From positions 7,592 to 71,591 of IMG/VR virus record IMGVR_UViG_3300035703_000067: 64,000 nt of DNA. One strand, given 5' to 3'. Origin of the DNA: a virus. The stretch's first letter is position 1. Each line of letters opens with the position of its first letter. Shown here piece after piece: positions 10,280 to 43,052 of this stretch. The translations under genes were made by a program, and so were the position numbers. The notes beneath the pieces are model-generated. The model worked only from the letters and a program-made list of their open reading frames with translations. It did not search any database and was not told where the DNA came from.

Positions 10280-10321
10280 CCGTTTCGCAAAACGGTTGCT
10301 GTTCACCCTGTATTTATTGAG

Positions 10322-12324
10322 ATGAACCCTGATCAATTCCGGTACATGTCGCCTACGGGCCTTAAACGCGCCGAAACCCAATGGGTCGGCCGTGTCGAGA
10401 TTATTTGCCTTGATAGGTATCAGCGTCTGCCCATGAATTGGGCAATTAAGCACAAAGGCTACCATGAGTTTCGCACACTTAGTGCGGCTAAAAAGTTTGC
10501 GAAAGCAATCTGAGCTGATTATGGCATTAGATCTACTGTCACTGAACCTAACTGACGCGCAACTGCGCGCAGTATCGGCCATGCTGTGTGAATCACAGCA
10601 GAAACATAACGCGGAACTACTGCACATCCGCGCTGCAGTTAAGCGTGAGACAGACAAGCTCAGACTAATCTCCGCCGATGCGGCATCGCATCGCTTGTGT
10701 GATCGTTTATGCGCTCTGTGATCATCTCCCACAAACATCCCCCAGGCACATTGTGTCTGGGGTTGTTTATGTGAGGTGCTCTTTGCACCTTTTCCCTCTC
10801 GCAGTGAGTTATCTGCACTATGCACAAAGTCCACTACAACTGGGTGAAAGTTAAGCTTGCTTGTAAGCAACACTTTCAAGCAAATGAGTCAACTTACCTA
10901 GGCGACAGTATTGCCCAACGTGAATACTGGCTCAACTTCACCGACGACCTGTCACGCTGCGGCCTTATTACGCAGCACCAGCGCGACACTTGGTCGTGCC
11001 CTTTTTGACTCATTCCTGATCTGTTCGTTTGCTTTTCACAACATGAAATGGTTATCACCCGGATCCCTTATCGGTCCGCACTGGGAAGTCCAGCTCAAAC
11101 ATGTAGTAACCGGCGAATGGGTTACTTACACCGAACACACGACAGAAGCTAGTGCTACCGCTCTAGCTGAGCGGTACAACATCGCCTGCGACAGCAACGA
11201 TTCCCGCGTTATCGAAGTCAAATGATTCAAGAATACGCAACACCCGCCGACTTTGAGCGTTGGCGCGACCATGCAGAAACTCTCGATTGCGGAGCTCTGC
11301 GCTACATCGTGCGCGATTGTCGCGCCGCTGCCGCAAACATGCGCGGCTGGAATCCTATTCGTGAGGGCTACTACGAAGATCAGGCATTCACCTATGCCGA
11401 CGAACTAGCCCGTCGCTCACGCTAACCCATTGGATCTGAAGTAATGACAACCGTTTACCGTGTCGGTACTGGCGAGACTTTCGCCTACACACTCGCTCCC
11501 GCGCAGGCCGTCATCGCTGCCTACGAACAGCACACCTGCGGCAACTGGAATACGTGGCGCTACCGCGACCCGTCTCAATACAACGGCTATCGCCGCACCG
11601 AGCGCGGCCACGAATGCAACGGCTACTGGGCAAAAGCATGAATCCCCAAATCACACTCAACCCATCCGACTTCGACGCGCTACTGAAGTATTTTGCGCGT
11701 GCAAATCAGTTTCATTATGACGGTTATTGCTCCCAGGAAGAGTTTGAAACCGTCCAGGACTACATCGACCAGATTAAAGACCTCGCTCTTAACTACCGCC
11801 AATGACTTTCAAAATCATCTGGACAACTCCGTCCGGCCGATTTGGCTGGACTGAGATCACCGACTGCATCGATATGGAAGATGCAATGGAATTCTTTCAC
11901 ACAAATGTCAGAGGTGCAGACGCACCCGCTGACGCTGAAATTGACACTGTACGCAAAGTTTGACCATGGATCGCTATACCAAGACCACAGAAGTGTGGTT
12001 CCTGCTCCATCAAGTGGAACAGCTAATCATCAACGACCCAGCCTACATCTACGTCCTGCGCGACGTGTCCAACTGCATGGACCGGGTTGAAACAATCCAG
12101 CACGACATAGAGGTATCCGGCCAATGAGCATCACTTTCACCCGCCACATCGGCGGATTTGTTGTGCGGTTCAACCGCGCACTCGCAGGTGTCATCTACCT
12201 GCCACGCCCTGACGAACAGATCTGGCGCTTCGTCAATAGCGAGGGCGATTGCTTTACGGCCGACACGCTGAATGACATTCAGCGACTGGCCAGCGACATG
12301 TTGCTGATTGATTGCGCTGCCTGA
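10322..12324 (+). other. Array of ten small early ORFs (10322-10513, 10521-10721, 10820-11008, 11043-11225, 11222-11425, 11444-11641, 11638-11805, 11802-11963, 11966-12127, 12124-12324)
   Basis: Co-directional, tightly packed or ATGA-overlapping 53-67 aa ORFs; typical host-takeover region. Confidence 0.7.
10788..10810 (+). repeat. Repeated early-gene leader CCTTTCCCTCTCGCAGTGAGTT (second copy ~12375-12396)
   Basis: 22-nt exact repeat; each copy follows a hairpin and lies 5-9 nt before an ATG. Confidence 0.8.
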
Positions 12325-12401
12325 CTCGCCCCCAGAGCCTTTCCCTCACGGGTGGGCTCTCTGGGCGCTTCGCGCCTTTCCCTCTCGCAGTGAGTTCTGC
12401 T

Positions 12402-13133
12402 ATGGCCAAAAAGCCTCCCGGTGTGATCATCGATCAGGGCATCTCGCCCATCGACGGCTCGCCCTATGTGGCGATCATGGTTCTCGAGTCCGAGAACAGC
12501 AAGACCGGCAATATGTGCCAGGTCTACATCCTCCGCCCGGATGTGCATCCGCTGGAGGCAATTGCCTCCGGCGACGACCGCACCATCTGCGGCGACTGCC
12601 CCCACCGCCGCCGCCAGATCTGGGATGCCAAGCGCAAGCGCTTCAAGTGGGTGCGCAGCTGCTACGTCAACGTCGGCAAATCGGTTGCTGGCGTCTGGCG
12701 TGCTTTCACCCGTGGCAGTTACCCCGAGTACGACGCCGCGCTCCACGCCCGCTACCTACGCGGCCGCCGCATCCGTTGGGGTGCCTATGGCGACCCTGCC
12801 ATCCTCAATGAGAGCGTGGTGCGCGATCGCACCGCCATCGCGGACGGGCACACTGGTTACACACACCAGTGGCGCCACGAGTTCGCTCAGTGGTGCCGTG
12901 GCCTGTTCCAGGCATCGTGCGATTCCTTCGCCGACTACCTGGAAGCGAGCGATGCGGGCTGGCGTACCTTTGCCGTGGTGCCTAAGGGCGACACGCCCTA
13001 CAGCGGCAAGCTTTGCCCCGCCACGGCCGAGAATTCTCAAGCGCAGTGCCTGACGTGCCGCTTGTGCGATGGCGCCAAAACCGACATCTTTGTCGAGGCC
13101 CATGGCGTCGGCGCTGCCTTTGTCGGCGCGTGA
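12402..13133 (+). CDS. Cys-rich putative Fe-S protein (phage gp88-like / radical-SAM-like)
   Basis: NSKTG, CGDCPH...CYV, RWGAYGDP, GYTHQW, CPA...CLTCRLC. Confidence 0.65.
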   Translation: MAKKPPGVIIDQGISPIDGSPYVAIMVLESENSKTGNMCQVYILRPDVHPLEAIASGDDRTICGDCPHRRRQIWDAKRKRFKWVRSCYVNVGKSVAGVWRAFTRGSYPEYDAALHARYLRGRRIRWGAYGDPAILNESVVRDRTAIADGHTGYTHQWRHEFAQWCRGLFQASCDSFADYLEASDAGWRTFAVVPKGDTPYSGKLCPATAENSQAQCLTCRLCDGAKTDIFVEAHGVGAAFVGA

Positions 13134-13145
13134 CCTGTTCCCGAT

Positions 13146-13178
13146 TAGGTTGACCTTTTCCCGTGAAACAACTACTCT
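13146..13178 (+). promoter_or_regulatory. Sigma70-type early promoter (repeat copy 1)
   Basis: TAGG-TTGACC-TTTT..N17-TACTCT; identical boxes at 16349-16381. Confidence 0.8.
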
Positions 13179-13201
13179 CTGGGCGTCGCCGCAGACGCCC
13201 C

Positions 13202-14319
13202 ATGCCCCCATGGATCGCAGCCGAGCACGTCGCCGGCTTCCTTCTCGGCCTGGCGCTCGCCGCCATGGCCATCGACCACGGAATGCGTCACCCGACGCAA
13301 ACCCTTCCGCCCACACCAACCCTCTACGCAGGCTCATGACCCCTGATCCACGTCCCCTTTCGCCACCGGACGCACCCGAACACATCGCTGAGCCCCATCC
13401 CGTCTGGCACTTCCTGTCAGACGACTGGGATCACGAACACTGGGTGGAGGATCCCACCGCCGTCGACATGCTCCTGGTGGAATACGCCGAGCGCGGCGAG
13501 CCCTTCACCATGCGCCAAATGCTCGTGAACGACTGACCCGTTCACGAACCAGATCACACTCATTTCATCCTCTCTCAAAAGCCAGTGACTATTTCCTATG
13601 TGAAGCGGCCAACGCGCCGCGCCCGTTGTTATGCGCCTTCCGGGCAAGTAGGGCAACGTCTTGCCCGAGCCCGTGAGCTACAGCTCCAGATCCAAGAATT
13701 AACCGCTCTGTACAAAACCGAGCGCACATGGCTCCTGGAGCACATGCAGAGCAAGTCGCTCACCAACCTCGCCCTGGGTGATGTGACGTGCGTTCTGAAG
13801 CAACGCGCTAAGTGGATCTACTCCATCGAAACCCAGCGCGAGATGGAGCGCCTCCAAATCACCCAGGAGTGGGAGCAATCGCGAGGAATCGCATCAAACG
13901 AACCCAGCTACTACGTCTCCCTTTCAACCACAGAAGCCAAATGAGCCCTGCAACTTTCGCCGCGCTTGATGCGCGGACTCAATTCCGCACCTTCACCGCG
14001 ATGGAGCGCCACGGCGGTGGCTTCTGCGCTGCCCTCGCCCAGGCGTGGTTCAAAGCCGACCAAGGCAACAAGCGCCGCATCGAGGCCGCCTTTCCCCACC
14101 TCCTCGACGACTACGGCCCCGATTCCAATTACTTCTACCTCCAAAACATCTGAGACCATGCGCACCATCACCCTTCAAGTCATCCGAGAGCACGGCAGCG
14201 AAACCCGTCTCGCCGTTCAAGTCGACGGTCGCCGTGGTGTTCCTTCATCCCTCGCCCCCGAGGAAGTCGGCACCTGGGTGCAGGGCTTCCTCGCCGCACT
14301 CCCCCCACTGGAGGACTAA
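13202..14319 (+). other. Small early ORFs (13202-13339 membrane peptide, 13336-13536, 13585-13944, 13941-14153, 14158-14319)
   Basis: Coupled co-directional ORFs downstream of the promoter. Confidence 0.6.
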
Positions 14320-14639
14320 TGCGCCGTTTCATCCTCGCCCTAGCGGCCGCCGCGCTTTGCACCCCAGCGCAAGCTCGCACCGTCACCGCCACCGTCTACG
14401 ACGGTTGGTATCACGGCCGCGTCGCCTATTGCGGCCAGACCTACCAGCACTGGGGCGTATCGGCCGCCCATCCCTGGCTCCCATGCGGCACCCGAGTGCG
14501 CGTCTCTCACCGAGGGCGCTCCCTGACGGTGCCCATCACCGACCGGTGCGACTGCAACTCCATCGACCTAAGTGCCGGTGCCGCCTATCGCCTGGGCGTC
14601 CCGCTCGACGGCATCGCTTCTGTGCAAATCAGCTATTGA
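14319..14639 (+). CDS. RlpA-like double-psi beta-barrel protein (putative lytic transglycosylase) with signal peptide
   Basis: Signal peptide; ATVYDGWYHGR...SAAHPWLPCGTRVRV...VPITDR...IDLS. Confidence 0.85.
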   Translation: MRRFILALAAAALCTPAQARTVTATVYDGWYHGRVAYCGQTYQHWGVSAAHPWLPCGTRVRVSHRGRSLTVPITDRCDCNSIDLSAGAAYRLGVPLDGIASVQISY

Positions 14640-14643
14640 TCAA

Positions 14644-15399
14644 ATGAACACGAACTGTTTACGAGGCATTCAGTGCCCTCAATGCAATTCAGTAGGTCCT
14701 TTCTGGATCACAGTTGAGACTCAGGTACTTATGCACGACGATGGCTGGTCTGACACATCATCCACCGACGAATGGGGAGTCTGGTCATTTATCCGTTGTG
14801 ATCAATGTGATTACCACGGAACCGTAGACGAGTTTAATTGCCAATCTTTATCCACATCAAATGACTGACCTCACCCTTCCCACCGTTCATCTCAACGGCA
14901 CCTCGCGCACGATGCTCGCCGAGGGCTACGGCAACGCCTACCGCAAGCTCCAGGAGGCCATCCTTTCCTTCGGCGAAATCGAACACAACGCTCGTGACTA
15001 CTACGTGCAAGGCCCTGGTGCCTGGCCACAAGCAGCGGAACAGCGTGTCCAGATGCGCGAGCACCTGAATGCGGTGCAGAAGTACCTCGAAGCCCACCTG
15101 ATTCACCTAGGCGAATGACTGACCCCACTTTCAACCTGCTTCAACTCGAGCGCCACCCCAACTGGTACGACCACCTCGGCGCAGCCGAGGCCGCCATGCG
15201 CGAGCAAGACCGCATCGACACCCTCCGCTCCCGCGCCGGATGGGAGGGCGACGAGGGCGGTTGGTACTCCCCCTGCGGGATGCACGAAACCGATTGGGAA
15301 CTCGAGGGCTACCCCTTCCCGGAAGACCCCGAGTACGCCTCCTGGGCCTCCGCCTTCTACCACTACGACGCGCTCGACGCTGCCACCCCCACCCCATGA
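14644..15399 (+). other. Three small early ORFs (14644-14868 CxxC Zn-finger-like, 14861-15118, 15115-15399)
   Basis: Overlapping start/stop codons; CPQC...CDQC in the first. Confidence 0.6.
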
Positions 15400-16181
15400 A
15401 GCTCCACCTCCCCTCGCTCCAGGCGGCGGCCCACATCGCCTCCGCCTCCCAGAAAGAGAGCTACCCCCTACGCCTGGTGCAGGTCGTGCGTCGCCCCGGC
15501 GGTGGCCACCGCTACCTCGCCACCTGCGACGGCCACGTCGCCATCGCTTGCGACCACCACTGCGAGCAGACCGTCTCCGCGACCCGTGCGGGCACCTTCG
15601 AGACGCAAACGCACCGTGTCCCGATCGAGGACACCCAGCTCCCCGAGGGTGTCGTCACCTTGATCTGGGCGGACAGCGTCCCCAAGCGCAAACCCACCCA
15701 GCGCGAGATCGCCACCGGCGACCTCTGGATCCCCGAGAGCCACCTCCAAACCTGGCGCATCCTCGAAGGTGACACCCGCCTCGAGATGCTGCCCGACGAT
15801 CGCATCCCCGGCGATCCGCACACCTCGACCCTGCTCGTGATCCCGCGCCTGCACAAGCTCCTGCGCGAGTTCGTGCCCGGCAACTACGCCGCCGGAACCT
15901 CCGCCCGCGTGAACGGCCGCTACCTCGGCATGCTCTCACGCGCCTCTGAACTCCTCGCCCGCGCCGTGCTCGTCAAGAGCATCCACGGCGACCTCTACGG
16001 CGACACCCCCTCACTCGAGTTCTTCACCGACCACCCCCTCGAGGGCGCTCCGATCCTGGTCGACCTCACTGCTCAGCGTTGGGACGACTCCGACGCTTTC
16101 ACCGCCTGGGCGCAACTCATGCCCATCCAACGCCGCCGCGAAGGTATCCGTGGCAAACAACCACTCGCCGCAGTCGCATGA
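15396..16181 (+). CDS. Hypothetical protein with possible beta-sliding-clamp-like N-terminus
   Basis: AAAHIAS...YPLRLVQV...LATCDGH resembles the clamp R..L.GV...ATDGH segment. Confidence 0.45.
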   Translation: MKLHLPSLQAAAHIASASQKESYPLRLVQVVRRPGGGHRYLATCDGHVAIACDHHCEQTVSATRAGTFETQTHRVPIEDTQLPEGVVTLIWADSVPKRKPTQREIATGDLWIPESHLQTWRILEGDTRLEMLPDDRIPGDPHTSTLLVIPRLHKLLREFVPGNYAAGTSARVNGRYLGMLSRASELLARAVLVKSIHGDLYGDTPSLEFFTDHPLEGAPILVDLTAQRWDDSDAFTAWAQLMPIQRRREGIRGKQPLAAVA

Positions 16182-16351
16182 TTCACCCCTACTCCAAGCG
16201 CTCCAGCCAGCGCGTCACGATCACGATCCCCTACACCGTCCACGAGCGCGTCTGCGCTCTGGCCGACAAACAAGGCCGCTCAGCCTCCAACCTCATGGCC
16301 TACCTCCTCGAGGGCGCACTGGACCGCCTCGACTCATCCTCACCGGAATAG
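16178..16351 (+). CDS. Ribbon-helix-helix (CopG/Arc-like) protein
   Basis: RVTITIPYTVHERVCALADKQGRSASNLMAYLLE. Confidence 0.8.
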   Translation: MIHPYSKRSSQRVTITIPYTVHERVCALADKQGRSASNLMAYLLEGALDRLDSSSPE

Positions 16352-16381
16352 GTTGACCTTTTGCCCCGTTCCCTCTACTCT
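16349..16381 (+). promoter_or_regulatory. Sigma70-type early promoter (repeat copy 2)
   Basis: TAGG-TTGACC-TTTT..N17-TACTCT. Confidence 0.8.
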
Positions 16382-16465
16382 TCGCCCAGGGCCGCACAGC
16401 CTGTCCTCCCGAGGGGCGCGTCTCGGCCCAACGCGCAGTTCATCCACGTCTTTCACCTCAGCCAA

Positions 16466-17542
16466 ATGACTTTCACCACCAACCGCGTCTCCACCGCCTA
16501 CGCCGCCGACGGCATCGGCCCCATGGTCTACGGCAAGTACCGCGCTCGCGGCTACGCCGTGAACCCCCTGATCGACCGGGTGGGCACCGCCATCCCCGAG
16601 AACGTCTCGGCATCGGATGCCTTCCGCATCGCCGGCCTCGATTGGACCGCCGACAAGCGCCCCGCCTTCTTCATGGGTGCCGACGGCCCGGTGCAAGCGC
16701 CCGAGCATTGCGCCATCGTCCGCAGTGACAACGACAAGCTCCTCGGCCTCCACGGCTCGGGGTACACCCCGGTCCAGAACACCGCGCTGATCAACCTCCT
16801 GGACTACCTCCGCGAGGACATCACCATCGAGAACGTGCTCTCGATCCGCGACGGCCGCAAGGTGTTCGCCACCGCCTCGATCTCCACCGAGGACGAGGTA
16901 CTCCCCGGCGACAAGGTGCGCCGCTACCTCCACCTGTTCAACTCCCATGACGGGAGCAGCGGTTTCGGGGTGTTCTTCTCCGACGTGCGCCTGGCGTGCG
17001 CCAACCAGCTCGCCTACCTCACGGGCAAAGCGGTGGGCACCGCCATCACCAACGGCACTGGCCTACGCCGCAAGCACACCGCCTCCGTCACCGAGTTCGC
17101 CCAGCAACTCCCCCACCTGATCGACCTGGAGCGCCGGAGCTTCCGCAAGTCCATCGACGAGCTTCGCGCCCTCACCGGGGTGCAGCTCACCACCGAGTTG
17201 GCCCGGCGTGTCCTCGAGACCACCTACGCCGACAAGCTGGCCACCCCGATCAAGGACAAAGACAGCGGCAAGCCTCGCCAGCGCACCATCGGAGACCTCA
17301 AAGAGGTTGACGTGATCCGTGGCCACTTCGCTGGTGACACCGGCCTGGGTATCCGCGACCTCCCCGGATGCGCCGGCACCCTCTACGGCCTGTACAACGC
17401 CATCACCCAGTTCGAGACGCACGACTCCGGTCGGGCGAAGGACGAAACCGAGCGCGCCCGCGCCCGTCTCGAGTCCCTCTGGGGTGGCACCAGCGCCAAG
17501 CGCATCGAGCGCGCCCGTGAGGCATGCCTCGCACTCGTCTGA
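16466..17542 (+). CDS. DUF932/DUF945-family phage/plasmid protein
   Basis: AGLDW, YTPVQN, NSHDGS, RLACAN, GTLYGLYNAITQF motifs. Confidence 0.85.
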   Translation: MTFTTNRVSTAYAADGIGPMVYGKYRARGYAVNPLIDRVGTAIPENVSASDAFRIAGLDWTADKRPAFFMGADGPVQAPEHCAIVRSDNDKLLGLHGSGYTPVQNTALINLLDYLREDITIENVLSIRDGRKVFATASISTEDEVLPGDKVRRYLHLFNSHDGSSGFGVFFSDVRLACANQLAYLTGKAVGTAITNGTGLRRKHTASVTEFAQQLPHLIDLERRSFRKSIDELRALTGVQLTTELARRVLETTYADKLATPIKDKDSGKPRQRTIGDLKEVDVIRGHFAGDTGLGIRDLPGCAGTLYGLYNAITQFETHDSGRAKDETERARARLESLWGGTSAKRIERAREACLALV

Positions 17543-17626
17543 AGCTTCGTCAGACTTATCCCGTCCGGGACCGGTTACGGGGGCATCTTGCCCCCTTCAG
17601 TTCTCCCACTATTCACAGCACCGTAA

Positions 17627-17917
17627 ATGCCTGAGATCGCCATTGTTTCCAAGAATCCTTCACTTGTTGCCTGGCTTAACGCCAAAGGCATCAAAGGATC
17701 CGTATACGACTACGCCAACCCTGGCGATGTTGCCCACAAACACGTCTACGGCATCGTGCCCTACTGGATGGCCGCTTTCGCCGATTGCGTCTCCGAGGTG
17801 AGCATGCCCCACCTCGACCGCGAGGACCGCGACCGCTTCAACCGAGGCCAGCTCACCACCCAAGAGATGGACGCTGCCGGCGCAGAACTCGTCACCTACC
17901 GAGTGCGCCGCATTTGA
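17627..17917 (+). CDS. Csx16-like protein (putative ring nuclease / anti-type-III-CRISPR)
   Basis: IVSKNPSLVAWL...HVYGIVPYWMAA...RGQLTTQEMDAAGAELVTYRV resembles Csx16 (SRHPGA.EW, VIGTLP.HLAA, RG.ELS.E....GA.L..Y.V). Confidence 0.6.
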   Translation: MPEIAIVSKNPSLVAWLNAKGIKGSVYDYANPGDVAHKHVYGIVPYWMAAFADCVSEVSMPHLDREDRDRFNRGQLTTQEMDAAGAELVTYRVRRI

Positions 17918-17926
17918 GCGCCCGAT

Positions 17927-17995
17927 AAAAAGCCCCGGTTTCTCAGGCCGGGGCGTTCATCCACGCAGTGACCAGTGAGTAAACATCACCACGCC
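17927..17995 (-). ncRNA. Candidate ~70-nt small RNA antisense to early-gene leaders
   Basis: Minus-strand TAGACT box at 18006-18001; ~40-nt body; GCCCCGG/CCGGGGC hairpin plus U5 terminator. Confidence 0.5.
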
Positions 17996-18108
17996 AAATC
18001 AGTCTATGTCTGAGGCTCGCCGACCGGCGCAACCGCGTCAGAATGACCGAGCACGGGTGCCGCCCCTGAGCCGCACCACGCGCATAAGCCCCCTACCGCC
18101 CCTCCGAC

Positions 18109-19185
18109 ATGGACACCTCCATGGCAGGTTTCGCTGCGTATGAACTTATGCAAGTGACAACAGGAATAGCTCTGTACACCACATTTGCTACAGCAAACGA
18201 GATTCTCCGAGCCAATGCAAACCTCAAACAACGCGGCATTGAATCCCGCTTCGTTCCTGCAGGATCCTTTGTCATGCCGTCACTACACCACTAGGTACGT
18301 CATCCGTACCGAGCGCGGCTTCCTTGCAGCCTGCACCGGCATCGGTGGCGTCCCCGTCGAAGAGGTTCCCGACCCCTTCGCAGCGGTGCGCTTTGCGGAC
18401 CTCGACACCGCCGCCTACCGCGCCCGAGCCCTTCTCAAGCTCGGTTGGGACCACCACCTACGCATCGTGGCGCTCCGCGTCCCGATGTTCTGAACCCCTT
18501 CATCCACGCATTTCACGTCATGTCTGAATCTTTCTGGTCGTCACTCGCCACCTATTGCCAGGAACTCGCCCCCGTGGCTGGCCCTCTCCTTGGTGCCGTT
18601 GGTGAGACCGCTTCTGCCGTAGAGCGCGCCGGTCGCCAAACCAAATCGCTCAAGGCCGCGTCACGCACCCTCGAGGCGGACCTCCTCGCCACCGAGGACG
18701 ACTTCTAAACCCCAACCGCACCCCGTTCATGTCTGAGACCGCAACCCACTCGTTCATGCCGGGGTGCAACCCCTTGGTGCAGCAAGCACGGCAGGACTAC
18801 ATCGAAACCCTCTACGAGCAAGACGGCCGCCACAACCCTGAGCACCCATTGCACGGCCTCTACACCGGGCTCTGGGAGCTCTACATCGGCCACCGCTGCA
18901 CGGATGAGGACCAATGACCGCCGACGTGAGTGTGACCTACCGCCTCGACGATCAAGGGAACGACTGTTACTGGATCTGTCTCCCCGAGCACGACGTGTGC
19001 TCAATCGTCTCCTCCGCGCACCTGATCGAGGAGCGCACAACGCAGTTGTTACGCCGCTTTAGCGCATGAAACGCTACGCCGTCCTCGCTCTCGCCCTGGG
19101 CCTCGTTGTCGGAGCAACGCTCCGCTGGGCGACCAGCCCCATCAACCCCACTCTTTCCCCCGACGCACCGGATCAATGGCAATGA
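18109..19185 (+). other. Small early ORFs (18109-18294, 18274-18493, 18520-18708, 18729-18917, 18914-19069, 19066-19185)
   Basis: Coupled co-directional short ORFs. Confidence 0.55.
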
Positions 19186-19499
19186 ACTGCCCCAAGTGCG
19201 CCACGCGGATGCGCGTTGTGCATAGCCAGAGCTTCGACAACCTCACACAACGCTGGTATCGCTGCCCCGAGTGCGAAGAAGGGCTACGCACCTGCGAAAC
19301 GATCCATCTCGGTGGCCCAAAGCGCAACCCGAAGGGCTCTGAGCATCCAAACGCAGTCCTGACTGAAGAGAACGTGCGCGCCCTTCGCGCTGCACACGAA
19401 CGCGGTGTTTCCTTAAGTCAACTCGCCATCGAGTACGGCATCCACCGGAGCACAGTGATCAACATCACCACCGGTCGCGCCTGGAGCCACGTCGCATGA
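19176..19499 (+). CDS. Zn-ribbon plus HTH protein
   Basis: CPKC...RCPEC..GLRTCE (NrdR/Ogr-like ribbon); LSQLAIEYGIHRSTVINITTGRAW HTH. Confidence 0.75.
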   Translation: MAMNCPKCATRMRVVHSQSFDNLTQRWYRCPECEEGLRTCETIHLGGPKRNPKGSEHPNAVLTEENVRALRAAHERGVSLSQLAIEYGIHRSTVINITTGRAWSHVA

Positions 19500-19649
19500 C
19501 CGACCTCGAAGCCTGGAAGGATTACTGCGACGCCAGCCTCGACCTAAGCAATCAGGACGACGTTGAAGAGTGCCCAGAAATGTTCGACTTGGTTTGGCCC
19601 AGTTGGATTGAACCAGACGAAGACGAGTAGTCATTACCACTAATCACCC

Positions 19650-20009
19650 ATGACACAACAACATCCCATCACCCCACCGCCTGAGCTGATTCAGAAGTGG
19701 TCAGAACAGTTTGAAGCAGGGAGATCACTCTATGCAATGTTTGAAGATATTTACAGAGCAGGAGCAGACGCTGAGCTTGAGGCGTGCTGTGAGTGGCTGG
19801 TCAGCGAAGGGTGGTTCAAATACGAACACGAGGCTGTGGAAGATCTCCGCGCCGCCCGCCGCCCCAAGCCGCCGAGCTTGAAGGAGCAGGCGCTACAGGC
19901 CCTTGCCGAAGCTGACCTTGGTTCAACGGAAGCGGAGTGGTCTCAACGCTTCGACACCATCCGCCGCGCCCTTGAACAACTTCCCAACCACACAAGTGAG
20001 GAACTCTAA
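19650..20009 (+). CDS. Hypothetical phage protein
   Basis: HPITPPPEL...GADAELEACCEWL...LRAARRPKPPSLKEQAL. Confidence 0.7.
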   Translation: MTQQHPITPPPELIQKWSEQFEAGRSLYAMFEDIYRAGADAELEACCEWLVSEGWFKYEHEAVEDLRAARRPKPPSLKEQALQALAEADLGSTEAEWSQRFDTIRRALEQLPNHTSEEL

Positions 20010-20062
20010 AGACCCGCAAAGACTACAAGAATCTGGACGATGCCATTTGCCCTAATCACACC

Positions 20063-20317
20063 ATGACTGACTGGAAAGCACTCTGCCGTGAATTAGTCAC
20101 TGCTGTCGAATCAAACTGCAAGGAGCACATCATCAGCCACGATCTGAACTGCGCCTACATGAAGGCAGATGCCGCCCTGGCCCAGCCCGAGCCGGAAGCG
20201 CCGACGGATGAGGAGTTGCTGTTTGCGTTCTACGAAGCATCACTGGCTGAAGGAGGCGATACCGACGAGGTAACGCTCAGGGGTCTTCGCGCCGTTCTCG
20301 CCCGCTGGGGCAAGTAG
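20063..20317 (+). CDS. Hypothetical phage protein
   Basis: MTDWKALCREL...ALAQPEPEAPTDEEL...RAVLARWG. Confidence 0.7.
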   Translation: MTDWKALCRELVTAVESNCKEHIISHDLNCAYMKADAALAQPEPEAPTDEELLFAFYEASLAEGGDTDEVTLRGLRAVLARWGK

Positions 20318-20362
20318 TCACCTTCTTTACTCAAGCCCCACTCCTCACACAACGTCATAACG

Positions 20363-20632
20363 ATGTCGTCAAAGCGCCTCGAAACCAAGGTTTACCTCAC
20401 CTCCGAAGAACGCGAAGCCCTCGACCGCGAAGCCACCCGCCTTCTCATCACGCGAGGCCAACTCATCCGAGAGCGTGCCCTCGGCATCGCCGCTCCTCGC
20501 CCCGCAACCCCTCAGATCTACGCCCGTGCCGTCGAGAAAGCCGCTCGCGTGGTCTCCGGCGTCCCCCGCCCGCATTTGGAAGCAATCGTCGCGTCTGTGG
20601 TTTGCACGTTGAGCGAGGCAGAAGCTGGCTAG
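20363..20632 (+). CDS. RHH/MobC-like DNA-binding protein
   Basis: TKVYLTSEEREALDREA..L.ITRGQLIRERAL. Confidence 0.65.
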   Translation: MSSKRLETKVYLTSEEREALDREATRLLITRGQLIRERALGIAAPRPATPQIYARAVEKAARVVSGVPRPHLEAIVASVVCTLSEAEAG

Positions 20633-20672
20633 ACTTCGACCAGATTCGGAATAGTTCAGCAGAACTCGGAAG

Positions 20673-21155
20673 ATGCCAGCACGAAACGCCTCGTTTATCG
20701 ATGGTCTCCGCGAGAACGAGCGAATGGCTGCAGAGTTGCTCGCCCGGGGCAAGACGTGTCGGGAAGTAGCCCGTGCGTTAGGCATCTCCGAGCGTGCGCT
20801 TTACAACTGGCGCAAGCGCCCAGCAGTGCAACGTGCGGTCTACGCCTTACAGCAAGAGCTGATCGACACCTCGGAATCAAAGGGCCTGGCGCTCATGCCC
20901 GAGGCGATCACGACGTTGACGGAAATCATGAACGACCCCTCGGCGCGCGCTGCAGATCGCATCGCGGCCTCACGCGCCTTACTGAATGGCGCCGCCGCCT
21001 ACCAAGAGCGCAAGATGCTCGAGCGCACGGTGTCCGACCTCGAAGCGCAGATCTACGGCTTGCTCCAGGTGCCAGGCGTCGAAGTCCCCGAGAGCGAGGA
21101 CGACCTCGCCGATGACCTCGACCTGCTCAAGAGCGCCGACCCAGAGGACGCGTGA
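20673..21155 (+). CDS. terS: Terminase small subunit (putative)
   Basis: N-terminal HTH (REVARALGISERALYNW); directly upstream of and overlapping terL. Confidence 0.75.
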   Translation: MPARNASFIDGLRENERMAAELLARGKTCREVARALGISERALYNWRKRPAVQRAVYALQQELIDTSESKGLALMPEAITTLTEIMNDPSARAADRIAASRALLNGAAAYQERKMLERTVSDLEAQIYGLLQVPGVEVPESEDDLADDLDLLKSADPEDA

Positions 21156-22633
21156 CGGCCTCCATCGCCCAGCTCCAACGCCGGGCCGACAAACTCCGCC
21201 AAGAACTCGCCCGCCGCAAGGCGCGCTCGGCGAACTTCGACCCCGCCATCGCCCCGACGAAGCTCCCCGGCGTCGACGACTGGCCAGCGTTCGCGCGGCG
21301 CACCTGGATCCGCACAGCCGGCACGGTCGCCCCCTTCGTGCCCTACGCCTACCAAGAGGAGCTAGTGCGCTCGATCAACACGCACCCCAACACGATCATC
21401 AACAAGTCGCGCCAGATGGGCGCCTCCGAGACGGTCTGCTCCTACTTGCTATGCCGAGCCCTCACCGAGCGCGGCTTCGCAGCGGTGGTCTTCTCCAAGA
21501 CCCAACAGGACGCCTCCGAGCTGGGGCGCCGCGTGCGCGCCATGGCCAACAGCATCGAGGGCGAGGCCATCCGCTACCTCACGGACTCCAATACGCAGAT
21601 CGCCATCGAAGGCCGGGGCACGTTGTACTTCCTCCCCGCCTCACCGCGCGCAGCGCGGGGCATCCCGTCCTGCTCCGTGCTGTTCATGGACGAAGGCGCC
21701 TTCCTCGACGGTGCCGCCGAGATCTACCGGGGCGCCATGCCAACCCTCTCGATGGTGGGCGAAGCCGCCAAGGTGATCGTCACCTCGACCCCCGACACCG
21801 AACTCGACTGGTTTGGCCAGCTCTGGCATCAAGGCACACCACCTGACTGGTACGAGTACGTCAAGCGCCGCGACATCAACGGGCTCAACACCCTGCTCGC
21901 CCGGGTGAAGGACTCGTGGAACCGCGTGGCGATCCACTACTCACAACATCCGATCTACGGCTTCGACCCCGAGTGGGCGCGGAAGACCCGCGAGTCGCGT
22001 CGGATGACCCAGGCCGCATGGGACTCCGAGTACGAGCTGGCGTTCGGAGCGACGGACACCCAGATCTACCCATCGGAACTGATTCGCCGCGCCACGCGAG
22101 GCCACTGGCGCGAGTGCGGTTCGATTGGCCGCACCTACGTGATCGGCGTCGACCCAAACGCCGGGGGCAACGACTACTTCACAGCGATCGTGTTGGACAT
22201 CACCGAGCGTCCCTACGAGGTTGTAGGGATGTACCACGAGAACGGCAAGAGCACCGATTACAGCTTGCGTCATGTGAAAGCCTTGATAGACGATTACCTA
22301 CCGGAGCGGGTAATCGTGGAAAAGCAGGCGATGGGCGCTGTGATTGCAGAAGCGCTCTCAACCGTCCTGCCAAACTATGCTATCGAAACTTTCAGCACCA
22401 GTCGCCCGAGCAAGATCGTTGCTACCGATCGCATCTTGTTCTTGATGGAGCACGATGAGCTGATCTTCCCCGAGGGCGTGATACCGAATGAGCTACGAGC
22501 TTTCCAGCAAAAGGAAAGTGGTAACCGCGAAGCCGCCTCAGGAGCGCACGATGACGCGGTGATGGCCCTGGCCTTCGCCTGCCACGCCATCCCAGAGACA
22601 CCAAACACTGCAGGGTTCTTCGCCCACATTTAA
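21152..22633 (+). CDS. terL: Terminase large subunit
   Basis: PYAYQ, KSRQMGAS Walker A, LFMDEGAF Walker B, TSTP, IGVDP, HDDAVMALA. Confidence 0.95.
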   Translation: MTASIAQLQRRADKLRQELARRKARSANFDPAIAPTKLPGVDDWPAFARRTWIRTAGTVAPFVPYAYQEELVRSINTHPNTIINKSRQMGASETVCSYLLCRALTERGFAAVVFSKTQQDASELGRRVRAMANSIEGEAIRYLTDSNTQIAIEGRGTLYFLPASPRAARGIPSCSVLFMDEGAFLDGAAEIYRGAMPTLSMVGEAAKVIVTSTPDTELDWFGQLWHQGTPPDWYEYVKRRDINGLNTLLARVKDSWNRVAIHYSQHPIYGFDPEWARKTRESRRMTQAAWDSEYELAFGATDTQIYPSELIRRATRGHWRECGSIGRTYVIGVDPNAGGNDYFTAIVLDITERPYEVVGMYHENGKSTDYSLRHVKALIDDYLPERVIVEKQAMGAVIAEALSTVLPNYAIETFSTSRPSKIVATDRILFLMEHDELIFPEGVIPNELRAFQQKESGNREAASGAHDDAVMALAFACHAIPETPNTAGFFAHI

Positions 22634-22669
22634 TAGTTTGACGCAGACTTTAATTGTACAAGTCAAAAG

Positions 22670-23005
22670 CTAAGCGCAACTTGTATCGACATTATGGATC
22701 CATTTCCAGATTTCCGCCTCACGCAATGGGTCCCAGAACTCCTGCTGGCGATACCAGTCGAACCAAACGCTATGGCCTTTCTGCGAATTGCAAAGTAGGC
22801 AGCACCCAACAAGGTTCTCCCTAACTGTCACACCACCATGAGCTTTTGGGATGACATGATCAAGGGTCGCTCCTCTCCCTAAGTCTTCATCGCAATAAGC
22901 ACAGCATCCATTCCATTTATCTAAAACAACGCGCCTAAGTCGAGTCTTTGCATCGCGCTTGGTTACTAGCTCAGAGCCATCGATCTGATGGTCCACCATG
23001 AGCAT
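22670..23005 (-). CDS. HNH endonuclease
   Basis: CAYC...TLDHVIPKAHGG...NLVGCCLLCNSQKG. Confidence 0.9.
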   Translation of the reverse strand: MLMVDHQIDGSELVTKRDAKTRLRRVVLDKWNGCCAYCDEDLGRGATLDHVIPKAHGGVTVRENLVGCCLLCNSQKGHSVWFDWYRQQEFWDPLREAEIWKWIHNVDTSCA

Positions 23006-23179: not shown

Positions 23180-24982
23180 GTGGCCTCTACTTCTACCGAA
23201 GCGTTCCGGAATGATGGGGCCTTAGTAAATATATTGTCCGGAATGGGTGTATCCACCAAGGACAAGACTGTAGCAACCATAGTAGGTGCAAAACCAATAC
23301 TAACTGAAGGCGAACTCGAAGCTCTATACGCACATGGAATACCCAGACGCTACGTCGACTCCATCTCCGACGAGATCCTGCGCCACCAGACCACGATCAC
23401 GCTGGGCGGCGACGACGAGGAAAACGCCAACGACCTGATCGCATCGTTCGAGGAATTCCTGAAGGCCACGCAATTCCACCACGCCTTCTCCGAGGTCGTG
23501 AAGCTGCAGCGCCTCTACGGCGGCGCCGGCCTGGTGCTCCTCATCGATGACGGCCTCCCGCCCGAAGAGCCCGTCGACATCAATCGCATCCGCTCGATCC
23601 AGGGCTATGTGCCCCTGTCGCGGCACGAGCTAATCCCCGAGGACTTCACGATCACCGACTACACCAAGCCCTCGCACTACCGGATCACGACAGCGCAGCG
23701 TCTGACCCCTGAGCAACAGGGGCAGTACGTCAACGTGCGGATCCATTCCTCGAGGGTGGCGCGCTTCGACGGGCTCTACCTGCCTTGGAACGTGCGCGTG
23801 CGCAACACCGGCTGGGGCCTTCCGGTACTCCAACTCGTCTGGGAGGCATACAAGCGCTACGAGAGCGCCATGTCGGGCCTGGAGTCGATGACGACTGACT
23901 CCGACCTGTTTGTCCACAAGATCCCAGGCCTGTTCAACCGCATCGCCACCGGCAACGAGAGCGACCTGCGCAAGCGACTGGAGGCCAACAACCTTTCACG
24001 CAGCGTCTATGGCGGCATGGTCGTGGACGTGGAGGAGGAGCTGCAGTTCCTCAACCGCGCCCTGAGCAACATCGCCTCCGCGACCGAGCCCTTCATCAAG
24101 GATCTCCAAGCAGCGACGGGTTGGCCCGCCTCGATCCTGATGGGCGACTCCCCCGGTGGCCTGGGCAAGGAAGGCCGCTTCGAGGAGCGCGTCTGGGCCT
24201 CGATTGTCGAGCAATGGCAAGAGGTCTATTGCCGCACGGCGGTGACCGAGGTGTTCCGGTACATCCTCGTCTCGCGCGAAGGCCCAGCCCGAGGACGGCC
24301 CCCTGAAAAGTGGAGCGTCGAATTCCCGAGCGTCTTCACGGAGACAGACAGCGAAAAAGCAGCGTTGCGACTGCAGGTAGCACAAGTTGATGCTCAGTAC
24401 ATCAATCTGGGCGTACTAAATGCATTAGAGGTACGTGAGGCAAGGTTTGGAGGAACCGAATATAGCATAGAAACAACATTAGATCCTAATGTCTCAAGCA
24501 TGCTGACTGAACAAACCAACATGCAGTTCGAGACACAAATGATAGGTATGCAAGCACAGAATGAAGCAGTTCAGAACCCACAAGAGGAGGAAGAACAACA
24601 ACCAGAAGAAGAGACTGAAGAGGAAGCTAAAACAGACTCTATCGACTATATAAATGCCCACGGCTACCGTATAGCAGTCGTAGCGCGCCTGGGCGATGTG
24701 AGCAAAGGAGTTTTAATAGCACCCGATGGACAAAGAGTAGACTCTAAACGTGCCTCAGTATTCGTAGTAGGTCCACAAAGAGCGTACGGACGTAAGTTGT
24801 ACAAGACCAGATTCGACGTACAGGGCGAACTTGTTGAAGGTCCGTATGCCATAGGCTTCCGCACGATCAAAGCAGCGAAGCAAGCAATCGCTTCTTTCTA
24901 TCCTCGGCAGAATGTGGCAGGGCTATCCCCCGTATCCGAGGGCGAGGCCGAAGCCCTTCGCGCCGGTTGGGAGCAGTACTGA
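23180..24982 (+). CDS. Portal protein (DUF1073-type) with acidic linker and C-terminal extra domain
   Basis: Position after terL; RLYGGA, RIHSSRV, GWG.PVLQ, LMGDSPGGLG, EVREAR. Confidence 0.9.
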   Translation: MASTSTEAFRNDGALVNILSGMGVSTKDKTVATIVGAKPILTEGELEALYAHGIPRRYVDSISDEILRHQTTITLGGDDEENANDLIASFEEFLKATQFHHAFSEVVKLQRLYGGAGLVLLIDDGLPPEEPVDINRIRSIQGYVPLSRHELIPEDFTITDYTKPSHYRITTAQRLTPEQQGQYVNVRIHSSRVARFDGLYLPWNVRVRNTGWGLPVLQLVWEAYKRYESAMSGLESMTTDSDLFVHKIPGLFNRIATGNESDLRKRLEANNLSRSVYGGMVVDVEEELQFLNRALSNIASATEPFIKDLQAATGWPASILMGDSPGGLGKEGRFEERVWASIVEQWQEVYCRTAVTEVFRYILVSREGPARGRPPEKWSVEFPSVFTETDSEKAALRLQVAQVDAQYINLGVLNALEVREARFGGTEYSIETTLDPNVSSMLTEQTNMQFETQMIGMQAQNEAVQNPQEEEEQQPEEETEEEAKTDSIDYINAHGYRIAVVARLGDVSKGVLIAPDGQRVDSKRASVFVVGPQRAYGRKLYKTRFDVQGELVEGPYAIGFRTIKAAKQAIASFYPRQNVAGLSPVSEGEAEALRAGWEQY

Positions 24983-43006: not shown

Positions 43007-43052
43007 AGCTAACCTGTGCCTATGACACCCACCCGAGACCGAGGGGCGTAAA

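What the first reader, a model, noticed from the sequence alone, without database searches (positions are those of the whole stretch)
17927..18006. Candidate trans-acting small RNA complementary to the leaders of several early genes
Seen: on the minus strand, a TAGACT box (18006-18001) is followed by GCGTGGTGATGTTTACTCACTGGTCACTGCGTGGATGAAC and then a 7-bp GC hairpin with U5 that works in the minus direction. The body is complementary to sequences just upstream of early start codons: GTTCATCCACG (~16438, DUF932), TTCATCCACGCA (~18499), CGCAGTGA/CAGTGAGT (~10800 and ~12387), TTCATCC...CCAGTGA (13564-13588, covering the GTG start) and CGTTCAT (~18724, covering the ATG). Inference: one sRNA made from a late-type promoter shuts off translation of several early mRNAs, acting as an RNA-based early-to-late switch.
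Basis: partly seen in the sequence, partly recalled or inferred. Interest (0 to 1): 0.8.

Follow-up and report, generated by a model that had tools for sequence, protein, structure and literature searches.

The report
Cyanophage small RNA mirroring gene leaders
An uncultured freshwater cyanophage carries a conserved gene for a roughly 70-base non-coding RNA, read against the flow of its neighbours, whose exposed parts are the mirror image of short tags in front of several of the phage's own genes, so it probably tunes those genes together, although no transcript has yet been seen.

Summary
Comparison with 19 other distinct relatives supports a real minus-strand RNA gene at 18006-17927. Its parts are a -10-like box (TAGACT here), a 5' hairpin, an invariant unpaired GUGGAUG, a GC hairpin with an invariant UGAGA loop, and a U run.

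- **Structure:** 95% of cells pair, 10 of 17 pairs show compensatory changes, and 0 of 500 shuffles reach this.
- **Strand:** the 5' hairpin pairs in 168 of 180 cells on the minus strand but 104 of 180 on the plus strand.
- **Family:** no Rfam family fits, and no cellular genome held it.

The trans-target idea is plausible but unproven. The RNA is antisense to a leader module (TCATCCAC, GC[A/T]GTGAGT) that stands before at least five plus-strand genes and is conserved in relatives. Matches of 8 or more bases are enriched at start regions (10 of 89 leaders against 2.9 in shuffles). Genome-wide match counts are at chance, and single-sequence folding energy is unremarkable.

Nothing supports a "late-type promoter" or an early-to-late switch. 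No strand-resolved RNA data exist.

Earlier notes of this scan describe similar "anti-leader" RNA candidates on other cyanophage genomes. None is a sequence look-alike of this one.

The parts
18001..18006 (-). -10-like promoter hexamer TAGACT of the RNA gene. No -35 element.
   Evidence: One search shows the hexamer. In one search, 16 of 20 homologues have nAnnnT at the aligned place; by my own reading this becomes 19 of 20 if three rows are shifted by 1 nt. TG stands at -15/-14 in 12 of 20, or 15 of 20 with the same shift. The 5 without TG have TA...T hexamers. This is a prediction only.
17985..17994 (-). Predicted 5' end (about 17994, give or take 2) and 5' arm of hairpin 1, GCGUGGUGAU.
   Evidence: The distance from the hexamer to the stem is 5-6 nt in all 20 homologues.
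17973..17984 (-). Loop of hairpin 1, GUUUACUCACUG. It complements CAGUGAGU in the leaders at 10802 and 12388.
   Evidence: Relatives carry AACUCACAGCG here, complementary to GCTGTGAGTT leaders.
17963..17972 (-). 3' arm of hairpin 1, GUCACUGCGU.
   Evidence: Four of the 10 pairs are G:U in this genome.
17955..17962 (-). Unpaired linker GGAUGAAC. Together with the adjoining GCGU it complements the UCAUCCACG(C) box.
   Evidence: GTGGATG is invariant in 20 of 20 homologues. It gives the best duplexes among 89 leaders.
17927..17954 (-). Intrinsic terminator: 7-bp GC stem, loop CCUGAGAAA (UGAGA invariant), and U5.
   Evidence: 5 of 6 lower-stem pairs co-vary. In one search the mean T count in the 8 nt after the stem is 5.85 on the minus strand and 2.05 on the plus strand.
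16438..16448 (+). Candidate target S1: box GTTCATCCACG in the 5' UTR of the DUF932 gene (start 16466).
18499..18510 (+). Candidate target S3: box TTCATCCACGCA, 10 nt before the ATG at 18520 (62-aa gene).
10790..10819 (+). Type-2 leader: it follows a plus-strand terminator, carries CCCTCTC-GCAGTGAGTT, and precedes the ATG at 10820.
12376..12401 (+). Type-2 leader: it follows a plus-strand terminator, carries CCCTCTC-GCAGTGAGTT, and precedes the ATG at 12402.
13564..13599 (+). Variant type-2 leader, TTCATCCTCTCTC ... CCAGTGAC, before the GTG at 13600.
   Evidence: It holds only 7-mers and is weak on its own.
19438..19471 (+). Lineage-specific extended match, CATCCAC ... CAGTGA ... AACATCACCAC. 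It lies inside gene 19209-19499 and 25-58 nt before the ATG at 19496.
   Evidence: local score 31 against a mean of 12.1 and sd of 2.3 over 12,732 windows. Seen only in this genome and in L023.

Best explanation
A non-coding RNA of about 68-72 nt is transcribed from the minus strand, from about 17994 to about 17927. It lies in the gap between the Csx16-like gene (17627-17917) and the small gene that starts at 18109.

**Architecture.**
- An extended -10-type promoter.
- A 5' hairpin whose loop shows ACUCAC(A/U)G.
- A short unpaired linker carrying the invariant GUGGAUG.
- An intrinsic terminator.

**What it mirrors.** The RNA is the antisense image of a leader module, (T)TCATCC(AC) followed by GC[A/T]GTGAGT. 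Parts of this module stand in front of at least five plus-strand genes of the non-structural region:
- 10820
- 12402
- 13600
- 16466 (DUF932)
- 18520

**Most likely action.** It base-pairs through its linker and loop with these leaders, within about 10-30 nt of their start codons. This would change ribosome access or mRNA stability for the whole set together. I judge repression more likely than activation, but the direction is inferred. The RNA is also perfectly antisense to any plus-strand read-through of its own locus.

**Status of each step.**
- Shown by comparison: the RNA structure, its strand, and the conserved complementarity.
- Inferred: transcription, the exact ends, pairing in vivo, and the effect.
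For: **1. One copy per genome.** Covariance model R1 finds a single copy in the window. Over 90 sources it gives 27 hits at E of 2e-9 or better, and the next best is E 0.019. It finds 15 more among the 80 listed loci of the metagenome scan, which reported 98 matching stretches. This yields 20 distinct sequences.

**2. Covariation.**
- 95.0% of 338 cells pair, against 82.3 +/- 1.2 in shuffles.
- 10 of 17 pairs changed on both sides.
- 0 of 500 shuffles reach this.
- Slid controls pair 23.7-50.6%.
- RNAalifold predicts the same two helices on its own.
- Unconstrained single-sequence folds recover both helices in 10 of 12 sequences.

**3. Strand.**
- Hairpin 1 pairs in 168 of 180 cells on the minus strand against 104 of 180 on the plus strand, with 65 G:U pairs.
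- The U run follows the hairpin only on the minus strand (5.85 against 2.05 T in 8 nt).
- The -10-like hexamer stands 5-6 nt before the stem.

**4. A self-contained module.**
- 12 of 13 loci downstream of the Csx16-like gene carry it; L031 lacks about 90 nt exactly there.
- Its downstream neighbour gene differs between groups.

**5. Targets.**
- Among 89 leaders, the linker's best duplexes are with 16466 and 18520 (-20.9 and -20.8 kcal/mol, z -3.9 and -3.8; the next is -16.5).
- 10 of 89 leaders hold a match of 8 nt or more, against 2.94 in shuffles.
- Over 16 genomes, matches of 9 nt or more number 68 on the mRNA strand and 21 on the other, and most lie just upstream of ATG codons.
- The body (plus-strand sense) is the best local match to the DUF932 start region in 9 of 16 genomes.
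- Cofolding pairs the RNA's 5' arm with the CCAUGCA start region in groups B to F.
- In group A2 the loop matches 12 nt (TCGCTGTGAGTT) of two leaders.

**6. Concerted changes.**
- The base after TCATCCAC is G at all three sites in 5 of 5 group-A genomes. It is A in 12 of 12 other RNA loci, in 9 of 11 DUF932 leaders, and in 4 of 5 third-site leaders. The three exceptions carry C.
- This genome has GCAGTGAGT in both type-2 leaders and in the RNA locus, whereas relatives have GCTGTGAGT in both.

**7. Co-absence.** L018, a DUF932 relative with no box in its leader, also has no RNA hit.
Against: - **No strand-resolved transcript.** Two metatranscriptome runs give contigs over 17864-18300, joined to the flanking plus-strand genes. 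Contigs carry no strand information, and DNA carry-over cannot be excluded.
- **Single-genome statistics are weak.** Matches of 8 nt or more number 69 on the plus strand and 72 on the minus strand.
- **Boxed leaders are not the unique best site.** Scanning every position, they are among the five best linker sites in 9 of 15 loci but the single best in only 1.
- **Little sign of pairwise co-evolution.** Cognate RNA-leader pairs run 10.3 and 11.1 nt; non-cognate pairs run 9.75 and 10.1 nt.
- **Counter-examples.**
  - L180 has one leader with the other variant.
  - L014 and L017 have C at the box position in the DUF932 leader.
  - L039 has C at that position in the third-site leader.
  - Contig L002/L031 (7.4 kb) keeps boxed leaders without the RNA.
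- **Folding energy is not special.** The minus strand of this genome is G/U-rich and folds better everywhere. The background difference between strands is -3.6 +/- 4.9 kcal/mol and the locus gives -7.4, which 22.5% of background windows reach. Hairpin 1 alone is unremarkable.
- **Alignment bias.** The alignment used for pair counts was fitted to the model structure.
- **Few independent events.** The 20 sequences fall into about 8 groups.
- **Gene conversion.** Concerted evolution among repeated leader copies would also give the concerted changes.
Confidence: 0.5

Rival explanations
1. The RNA is real but works only in cis. It would act as an OOP-like antisense RNA and convergent terminator. 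It would pair with, and trigger cleavage of, plus-strand read-through from the Csx16-like gene into the downstream genes, or block that read-through by transcriptional interference. On this view the likeness to other leaders exists only because its template is a decayed copy of a leader.
For: - It is perfectly antisense to the intergenic plus-strand RNA, and RNA-library contigs bridge the locus.
- The plus-strand sense of the RNA body looks like a partial copy of the DUF932 leader and start region.
- Cognate and non-cognate complementarity differ little.
- Contig L002 keeps the boxes without the RNA.
Against: - The invariant parts are the unpaired linker and the loops, not the stems. This is the pattern expected of seed regions.
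- It overlaps no coding sequence in this genome; the terminator starts 10 nt after the stop codon at 17917.
- The order of motifs differs between the RNA locus and the leaders.
- Start-region enrichment and the 12-nt loop matches to two leaders in group A2 are not needed for a cis role.
Confidence: 0.27
2. No small RNA is made. The locus would be one more plus-strand copy of a repeated leader or boundary motif, for example a site for a phage or host protein, or a start-associated signal like the SAS of Cluster K mycobacteriophages. The hairpin would be a bidirectional terminator or a stabiliser for plus-strand messages.
For: - The motifs recur on the plus strand just upstream of start codons, in one orientation.
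- In relative G001 the 9-mer occurs 7 times forward and 0 times in reverse.
- Most genes here lack a Shine-Dalgarno sequence, so another start signal is conceivable.
Against: - Hairpin 1 pairs in only 58% of cells on the plus strand, which is close to the slid controls, against 93% on the minus strand.
- An A run precedes the hairpin and no T run follows it on the plus strand in 20 of 20 homologues, whereas the true plus-strand terminators of this phage carry T runs.
- The box lies 150 nt from the next conserved start (18109), unlike real leaders, where the distance is 10-45 nt.
- The -10-like box is conserved across non-3n indels.
Confidence: 0.12
3. The RNA is real, but its main partners are host molecules: host mRNAs, or a CRISPR or other defence component, given the neighbouring Csx16-like gene. 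On this view the phage leader matches are secondary.
For: - Conserved linkage to the Cas_VVA1548-family gene in groups A and B.
- Invariant single-stranded motifs.
- Phage small RNAs that act on host genes are described in the review PMC12197685 (passages read).
Against: - The host is unknown and could not be searched.
- In groups C and D another ORF separates the RNA from the Csx16-like gene.
- No homologue was found in cellular genomes by the pattern scan.
- The leader complementarity is conserved and enriched.
Confidence: 0.08

Closest known systems
Yfr1 small RNA of cyanobacteria (PMC2190773; abstract and passages read)
   Same: Similar size (54-69 nt). A 5' stem-loop and a GC-rich terminator hairpin with a U tail flank a short unpaired stretch that is perfectly conserved and thought to be the pairing seed.
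   Different: The conserved motif differs: GUGGAUG here, ACUCCUCACAC in Yfr1. The unpaired stretch is shorter (about 8-10 nt against 16-20). The loops are conserved here but not in Yfr1. This RNA is phage-encoded. No Rfam family, Yfr1 included, reaches its threshold.
P4 CI RNA with seqA/seqC (described in PMC4825925, one passage read) and the c4 RNA of P1/P7 (recalled from my own knowledge)
   Same: A short phage RNA whose sequence is complementary to several short sites on the phage's own early transcripts, and which controls them in trans.
   Different: CI and c4 are cut out of a same-strand transcript and act in immunity, CI by causing premature termination. This RNA has its own promoter and terminator on the opposite strand. 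Its sites sit at translation starts. No Rfam match.
OOP RNA of phage lambda and sar RNA of P22 (review PMC12197685, passages read)
   Same: A free-standing antisense RNA of about 70 nt inside an early operon, with its own promoter and an intrinsic terminator, convergent with the upstream gene.
   Different: OOP overlaps the 3' end of the cII coding sequence and acts in cis through RNase III. This RNA overlaps only intergenic sequence in this genome and matches several distant leaders.
Start-associated sequences (SAS/ESAS) of Cluster K mycobacteriophages (PMC3203893, passages read)
   Same: An asymmetric repeat in one orientation just upstream of start codons, found only in the non-structural part of the genome and conserved across subclusters before unrelated genes. 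The paper leaves open whether an RNA or a protein binds it.
   Different: SAS contains the Shine-Dalgarno core and lies 3-7 bp from the start codon. The boxes here have no Shine-Dalgarno core and lie about 5-45 nt upstream. There are few per genome (about 5 against about 15-20). Here a candidate complementary RNA is encoded by the phage itself.

Membership tests
Any Rfam 15 family | Score at or above the family's gathering threshold | tested here: not met
   One search found 0 matches in the whole window. In one search the best match was 18 bits (Betaproteobacteria toxic sRNA, gathering score 50, E 0.12).
Intrinsic (Rho-independent) terminator, minus strand | GC-rich stem-loop followed directly by a U run on the transcribed strand | tested here: met
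   One search shows a 7-bp GC stem and U5. In one search the 20 homologues average 5.85 T in the 8 nt after the stem on the minus strand against 2.05 on the plus strand. The stem co-varies.
Sigma-70-type promoter (extended -10 class) | TGn plus a TAnnnT-like hexamer 5-9 nt before the start; a -35 element is optional | tested here: inconclusive
   In one search nAnnnT holds in 16 of 20 and TG in 12 of 20; the rows without TG have TA...T. In this genome the hexamer is TAGACT without TG and without a -35 element. The consensus scan called nothing in 9000-23000. No start site was mapped.
Trans-acting base-pairing small RNA | A stand-alone transcript with a conserved single-stranded seed | tested here: met
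   The seed GTGGATG is invariant in 20 of 20 homologues and lies between two co-varying helices. Transcription itself is not shown.
Trans-acting base-pairing small RNA | Conserved complementarity to target mRNAs at or near their translation start, above chance | tested here: inconclusive
   For. Against.
Trans-acting base-pairing small RNA | A regulatory effect that compensatory mutations restore | not testable with these tools
   This needs reporter assays.
Yfr1 | Two stem-loops around an unpaired stretch holding ACUCCUCACAC | tested here: not met
   The architecture is alike, but the motif is absent and there is no Rfam hit.
C4 / CI RNA family (P1, P7, P4) | Rfam C4 model; processed from a same-strand immunity transcript | tested here: not met
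   No Rfam hit. The RNA lies on the strand opposite to all neighbouring genes.
Cis-antisense RNA of OOP type | Overlaps the coding 3' end of the convergent gene | tested here: not met
   The stop codon of the upstream gene ends at 17917 and the U run starts at 17927. The overlap is with intergenic RNA only.
SAS-like start-associated repeat (for the leader boxes) | An asymmetric repeat in one orientation, just upstream of start codons of non-structural genes, conserved across relatives | tested here: met
   There is no Shine-Dalgarno core, unlike SAS.

The most novel reading that the evidence does not exclude
The RNA is a master 'anti-leader' regulator. It would be a single phage-encoded small RNA, perhaps made once the phage's own sigma factor (7364-8227) is present. 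It would recognise a two-part leader code shared by a regulon of at least five Shine-Dalgarno-less phage genes and switch their translation together. That would be an RNA-based timing device in a cyanophage lineage. Similar candidates noted elsewhere in this scan suggest it could be a general strategy among cyanophages.
Probability: 0.3. Interest if true: 0.75.

Novelty: new member of a known kind. Interest (0 to 1): 0.6.

Why it matters
Known cyanophage RNAs are cis-antisense RNAs such as CfrI, or riboswitch-like motifs (review PMC12197685, passages read). My two literature searches listed no stand-alone base-pairing small RNA of a cyanosiphovirus. Those searches cover only open-access full text, and paper supplements were closed.

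If the RNA acts as proposed, it would show how a phage whose host barely uses Shine-Dalgarno sequences controls groups of genes after transcription. It would also give a concrete partner for 'start-associated' repeats, whose function has stayed open since they were described in mycobacteriophages.

The family is small, well defined (covariance model R1, 20 sequences) and directly testable.

Tried and rejected
- **Full-length duplex energies.** These were useless. duplexfold ignores internal structure, and every leader scored -45 to -55 kcal/mol. I replaced them with seed-only duplexes.
- **Single-sequence thermodynamics as strand evidence.** Rejected after the background control. The minus strand folds better everywhere in this G/U-skewed genome.
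- **'TAGACT is a late-promoter box'.** CATAGACTG with up to 1 mismatch gives 9 matches against 9.2 expected. TAGACT occurs 8 times genome-wide, 4 of them intergenic, with no pattern before late genes.
- **Coding explanations.**
  - The ORF 18006-18143 is not conserved; relatives have no ATG there.
  - The minus-strand ORF 18231-18004 has no coding-like GC3.
  - The ATG inside the 5' arm in groups B to F opens frames that differ in length and phase between relatives. L014 stops after 26 codons and L017 is out of frame with the downstream gene (my reading). In group C alone a coding N-terminal extension cannot be excluded.
- **tRNA, tmRNA or an attachment site.** There are no tRNA genes, and the hairpin loop is not a T-loop.
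- **A host-encoded homologue.** The pattern scan of prokaryote genomes gave 37 stretches, none of them cyanobacterial. The best model score was 20.6 bits. This pattern would miss divergent copies.
- **Metatranscriptome contigs.** They cover the locus but carry no strand, ends or level, so they support neither side.
- **Pairing of the terminator loop (GGGGUGAGA) with the UCUCAC(CC) tract just before several start codons.** I noticed this by eye. The order of the motifs would need a separate loop-loop contact. I ran no statistics on it and do not rely on it.
- **Likeness of the linker or loop to the 3' end of 16S rRNA or to a Shine-Dalgarno sequence.** This was considered from memory only and was not tested.
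Full report
**Setting.** The window is bases 7592-71591 of a 71,591-bp virus record.
- DNA similarity to deposited phages is limited to short stretches of Synechococcus phages S-CBS2, S-H1 and S-RIP1 (5 records, at most 3% of a 6-kb query).
- Public runs that hold the sequence are mostly lake and freshwater metagenomes, with aquatic, marine and subsurface ones as well; the best holder is a subsurface metagenome.
- From about 2100 onward nearly all genes lie on the plus strand:
  - SSB-like, exonuclease, dNMP kinase, thymidylate synthase
  - a sigma-70-family gene at 7364-8227
  - a block of small genes of unknown function at 9000-21000
  - terminase at 21152-22633
- Most genes have no Shine-Dalgarno sequence. 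A few structural genes do.
- The finding lies in a 190-nt gap between a 96-aa Cas_VVA1548 (Csx16-like) gene (17627-17917; Pfam E 1.6e-6) and a small gene whose conserved start is the ATG at 18109.

**The observation.**
- Taken in one genome, the complementarities are not striking.
  - The 72-nt body has 69 matches of 8 nt or more on the plus strand and 72 on the minus strand. The longest are 12, 11, 11 against 11, 10.
- Restricted to start regions there is enrichment.
  - 10 of 89 leaders hold a match of 8 nt or more.
  - 300 dinucleotide shuffles of the body give a mean of 2.94, and 2 of 300 reach 10.
  - 3.4% of 582 coding windows hold such a match.

**Relatives.**
- Searches with the DUF932 protein and the 96-aa protein fetched 35 IMG/VR loci.
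- Downstream of the 96-aa gene, 12 of 13 loci carry the same unit: an A run, a GC hairpin, then TCATCCAC. L031 lacks about 90 nt exactly there.
- Two DNA-pattern scans added more copies.
- A covariance model (R1) finds one copy in the window and in its whole genome.
  - 27 hits at E of 2e-9 or better in 90 sources, with the next hit at E 0.019.
  - 15 hits among the 80 listed loci of the metagenome scan, which reported 98 matching stretches.
  - This gives 20 distinct sequences in roughly eight sequence groups.

**It is an RNA, and it is on the minus strand.**
- On the 20-sequence alignment:
  - 95.0% of 338 cells pair, against 82.3 +/- 1.2 in shuffles.
  - 10 of 17 pairs have changes on both sides.
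  - No shuffle of 500 reaches any of the five measures.
  - Sliding the partners gives 23.7-50.6% paired.
- RNAalifold predicts the same two helices (16 pairs, 10 compensatory).
- This alignment was fitted to the model. However, unconstrained folds of single sequences recover both helices in 10 of 12 cases; L004 and L011 fold otherwise.
- The 5' helix holds 65 G:U pairs. It pairs in 168 of 180 cells on the minus strand and 104 of 180 on the plus strand, which is the level of the slid controls.
- The run of T follows the terminal hairpin only on the minus strand (mean 5.85 against 2.05 of 8). The phage's plus-strand terminators (before 10801, 12387, 4162) do carry T runs.
- A hexamer nAnnnT stands 5-6 nt before the 5' helix in 16 of 20 homologues. 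By my reading this becomes 19 of 20 with a 1-nt shift of three rows. It is preceded by TG in 12 to 15 of 20. The five without TG, this genome among them, have TA...T hexamers. The block is kept across indels that are not multiples of three.
- Caution: the minus strand of this genome folds better everywhere (background difference -3.6 +/- 4.9 kcal/mol, locus -7.4). The energies are therefore not strand evidence. The case rests on covariation.

**Anatomy in this genome (minus strand).**

| Part | Coordinates | Sequence |
|---|---|---|
| -10-like box | 18006-18001 | TAGACT |
| Predicted start | about 17994 | |
| Helix 1, 5' arm | 17994-17985 | GCGUGGUGAU |
| Helix 1 loop | 17984-17973 | GUUUACUCACUG |
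| Helix 1, 3' arm | 17972-17963 | GUCACUGCGU |
| Linker | 17962-17955 | GGAUGAAC |
| Terminator | 17954-17932 | loop CCUGAGAAA |
| U run | 17931-17927 | U5 |

- Invariant in all 20 homologues: GTGGATG at the 3' arm-linker junction and TGAGA in the terminator loop.
- No Rfam family fits.
- No copy was found in prokaryote genome representatives by a strict pattern.

**What it mirrors.** Two leader families recur on the plus strand in this phage and its relatives.
- **Type 1.**
  - (T)TCATCCAC(G/A)C, then usually a small GC hairpin and a CTCTCAC-like tract, then the start codon.
  - It stands before the DUF932 gene (S1, box at 16438). There it lies in a 5' UTR that starts at a conserved TTGACC-17-TACTCT promoter (16353).
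  - It also stands before the 62-aa gene at 18520 (S3, box at 18499).
  - A distant relative (L191) has four such leaders.
- **Type 2.**
  - A plus-strand terminator, T(C)CATCC(C)TCTC, GC[A/T]GTGAGTT, 5-9 nt, then ATG.
  - It occurs at 10801 and 12387, with a variant at 13564, and is conserved in all groups.
- The plus-strand sense of the RNA locus reads TCATCCACGC ... GC[A/T]GTGAGT, which combines both elements. The linker therefore complements the box and the loop of helix 1 complements GC[A/T]GTGAGT.
- In group A2 the loop match is 12 nt to two leaders.
- In groups B to E the RNA body is the best local match to the DUF932 start region in 9 of 16 genomes (z 4.2-7.0).
- Cofolding pairs the RNA's 5' arm (GCAUGG) with the CCAUGCA start region.
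- In this genome the best match is instead 19438-19471, inside gene 19209-19499 and just upstream of the ATG at 19496 (score 31, z about 8). It is seen only here and in L023.

**How good is the target case?**
- **For:**
  - Among 89 leaders the linker's two best duplexes are the DUF932 and 18520 leaders (z -3.9 and -3.8; next -16.5 kcal/mol).
  - Start regions are enriched for matches.
  - There are 68 matches of 9 nt or more on the mRNA strand against 21 on the other over 16 genomes (211.6 kb). Most lie at leaders. The window alone gives 12 against 10.
  - Two concerted clade-level changes:
    - The base after TCATCCAC is G at all three sites in 5 of 5 group-A genomes.
    - It is A in 12 of 12 other RNA loci, 9 of 11 DUF932 leaders and 4 of 5 third-site leaders.
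    - A in GCAGTGAGT stands at both type-2 leaders and the RNA locus of this genome, against T in the relatives.
  - A C-to-T change in one leader box (L009, TCATCTAC) keeps pairing as G:U.
  - L018 lacks both the box and the RNA.
- **Against:**
  - Scanning all positions, boxed leaders are in the top five in 9 of 15 loci but top in only 1.
  - Cognate pairing runs (10.3 and 11.1 nt) barely exceed non-cognate ones (9.75 and 10.1 nt).
  - Exceptions exist: L180 at 4837; L014 and L017 in the DUF932 leader; L039 in the third-site leader.
  - Contig L002/L031 keeps the boxes without the RNA in its 7.4 kb.
  - Repeated leaders could evolve in concert by gene conversion.
  - The events are few and the genomes are related.

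**Expression.** Two metatranscriptome runs hold contigs over the locus: X19 over 17864-18300, joined to 18463-18524; X20 over 17576-17862 and 18059-18304. Contigs give no strand, ends or level, and DNA carry-over is possible. I count this for no hypothesis.

**Mechanism.**
- The best-supported reading is a stand-alone RNA of about 70 nt, built like many base-pairing small RNAs, that can pair with a shared leader code at or near the translation starts of at least five phage genes. It is also unavoidably antisense to read-through of its own locus.
- I put the existence of the RNA gene at about 0.8 and trans regulation of the leaders at about 0.5. A purely cis role is the main rival.
- The direction of the effect (repression or activation) and its timing are open.
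- The promoter looks like an ordinary host-type or extended -10 promoter. Nothing marks it as late.

**Comparison with known systems.**
- In architecture it is closest to Yfr1 (PMC2190773).
- In logic it is closest to P4 CI RNA with seqA/seqC (passage in PMC4825925) and to P1 c4 (recalled).
- In placement it is closest to lambda OOP (PMC12197685).
- Its leader boxes resemble the start-associated sequences of Cluster K mycobacteriophages, whose binding partner is still unknown (PMC3203893).
- It meets the sequence definition of none of these families.

**Earlier notes of this scan.** They describe 'anti-leader' RNA candidates on other cyanophage genomes. None is a sequence look-alike of this locus. 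I did not test them.

Noticed in passing
window 16405-16437 (5' UTR of the DUF932 gene); relatives in alignment A5: A conserved hairpin, CCGAGG-GGYGCG-CCUCGG, whose loop can pair with CGCRC 8-10 nt downstream, giving an H-type pseudoknot. Both parts co-vary across groups: GCGCG with CGCGC, GUGCG with CGCAC, CUGCG with CGCAG, and CCGAGG/CCUCGG against CGGAGG/CCUCCG. It sits right before the TCATCCAC box. Its function is unknown.
   Followed up: partly
window 13150-13178 and 16353-16381: Two near-identical sigma-70-type promoters, (A)TTAGG/AATAGG-TTGACC-17 nt-TACTCT. The one before DUF932 is conserved in relatives as GGTTGAC-17-TAnnnT.
   Followed up: partly
window 7364-8227: A phage-encoded sigma-70-family protein with regions 2, 3 and 4 (Pfam E 4e-21, 2e-9, 2e-11). 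Which promoters it serves is unknown.
   Followed up: partly
window 17627-17917: A 96-aa protein of the Cas_VVA1548 (Csx16-like) family with no cas genes nearby. In groups A and B it is linked to the RNA gene.
   Followed up: no
window 10700-10790; minus-strand hits in L012, L010, L006, L014, L191: A long conserved GC-rich structured stretch (...CCCCCAG...GCGCACTGCGTCCGGGGG...GGCTGAGGTGCTTTGCA...) directly upstream of the first type-2 leader in all groups. It may be a further structured RNA or a compound terminator.
   Followed up: no
window 18301-18462: A 162-nt stretch (most of the gene called at 18215-18493) is absent from relative L023 and from an RNA-library contig (skip 18300 to 18463). 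This is a natural deletion variant.
   Followed up: no
L031 / L002 (one 7.4-kb IMG/VR contig): This relative lacks the about-90-nt RNA module at the usual place, yet it has boxed leaders before DUF932 and before the 96-aa gene.
   Followed up: partly
window 32137-32292: Two tandem copies of a 78-nt AT-richer unit, 97% identical.
   Followed up: no
window 24000-28000, 32000-34000, 42000-48000: Blocks of clearly lower G+C (0.44-0.52 against about 0.60) with reversed GC skew. My codon model, trained on the rest of the genome, misses genes there. This suggests mosaic origin.
   Followed up: no
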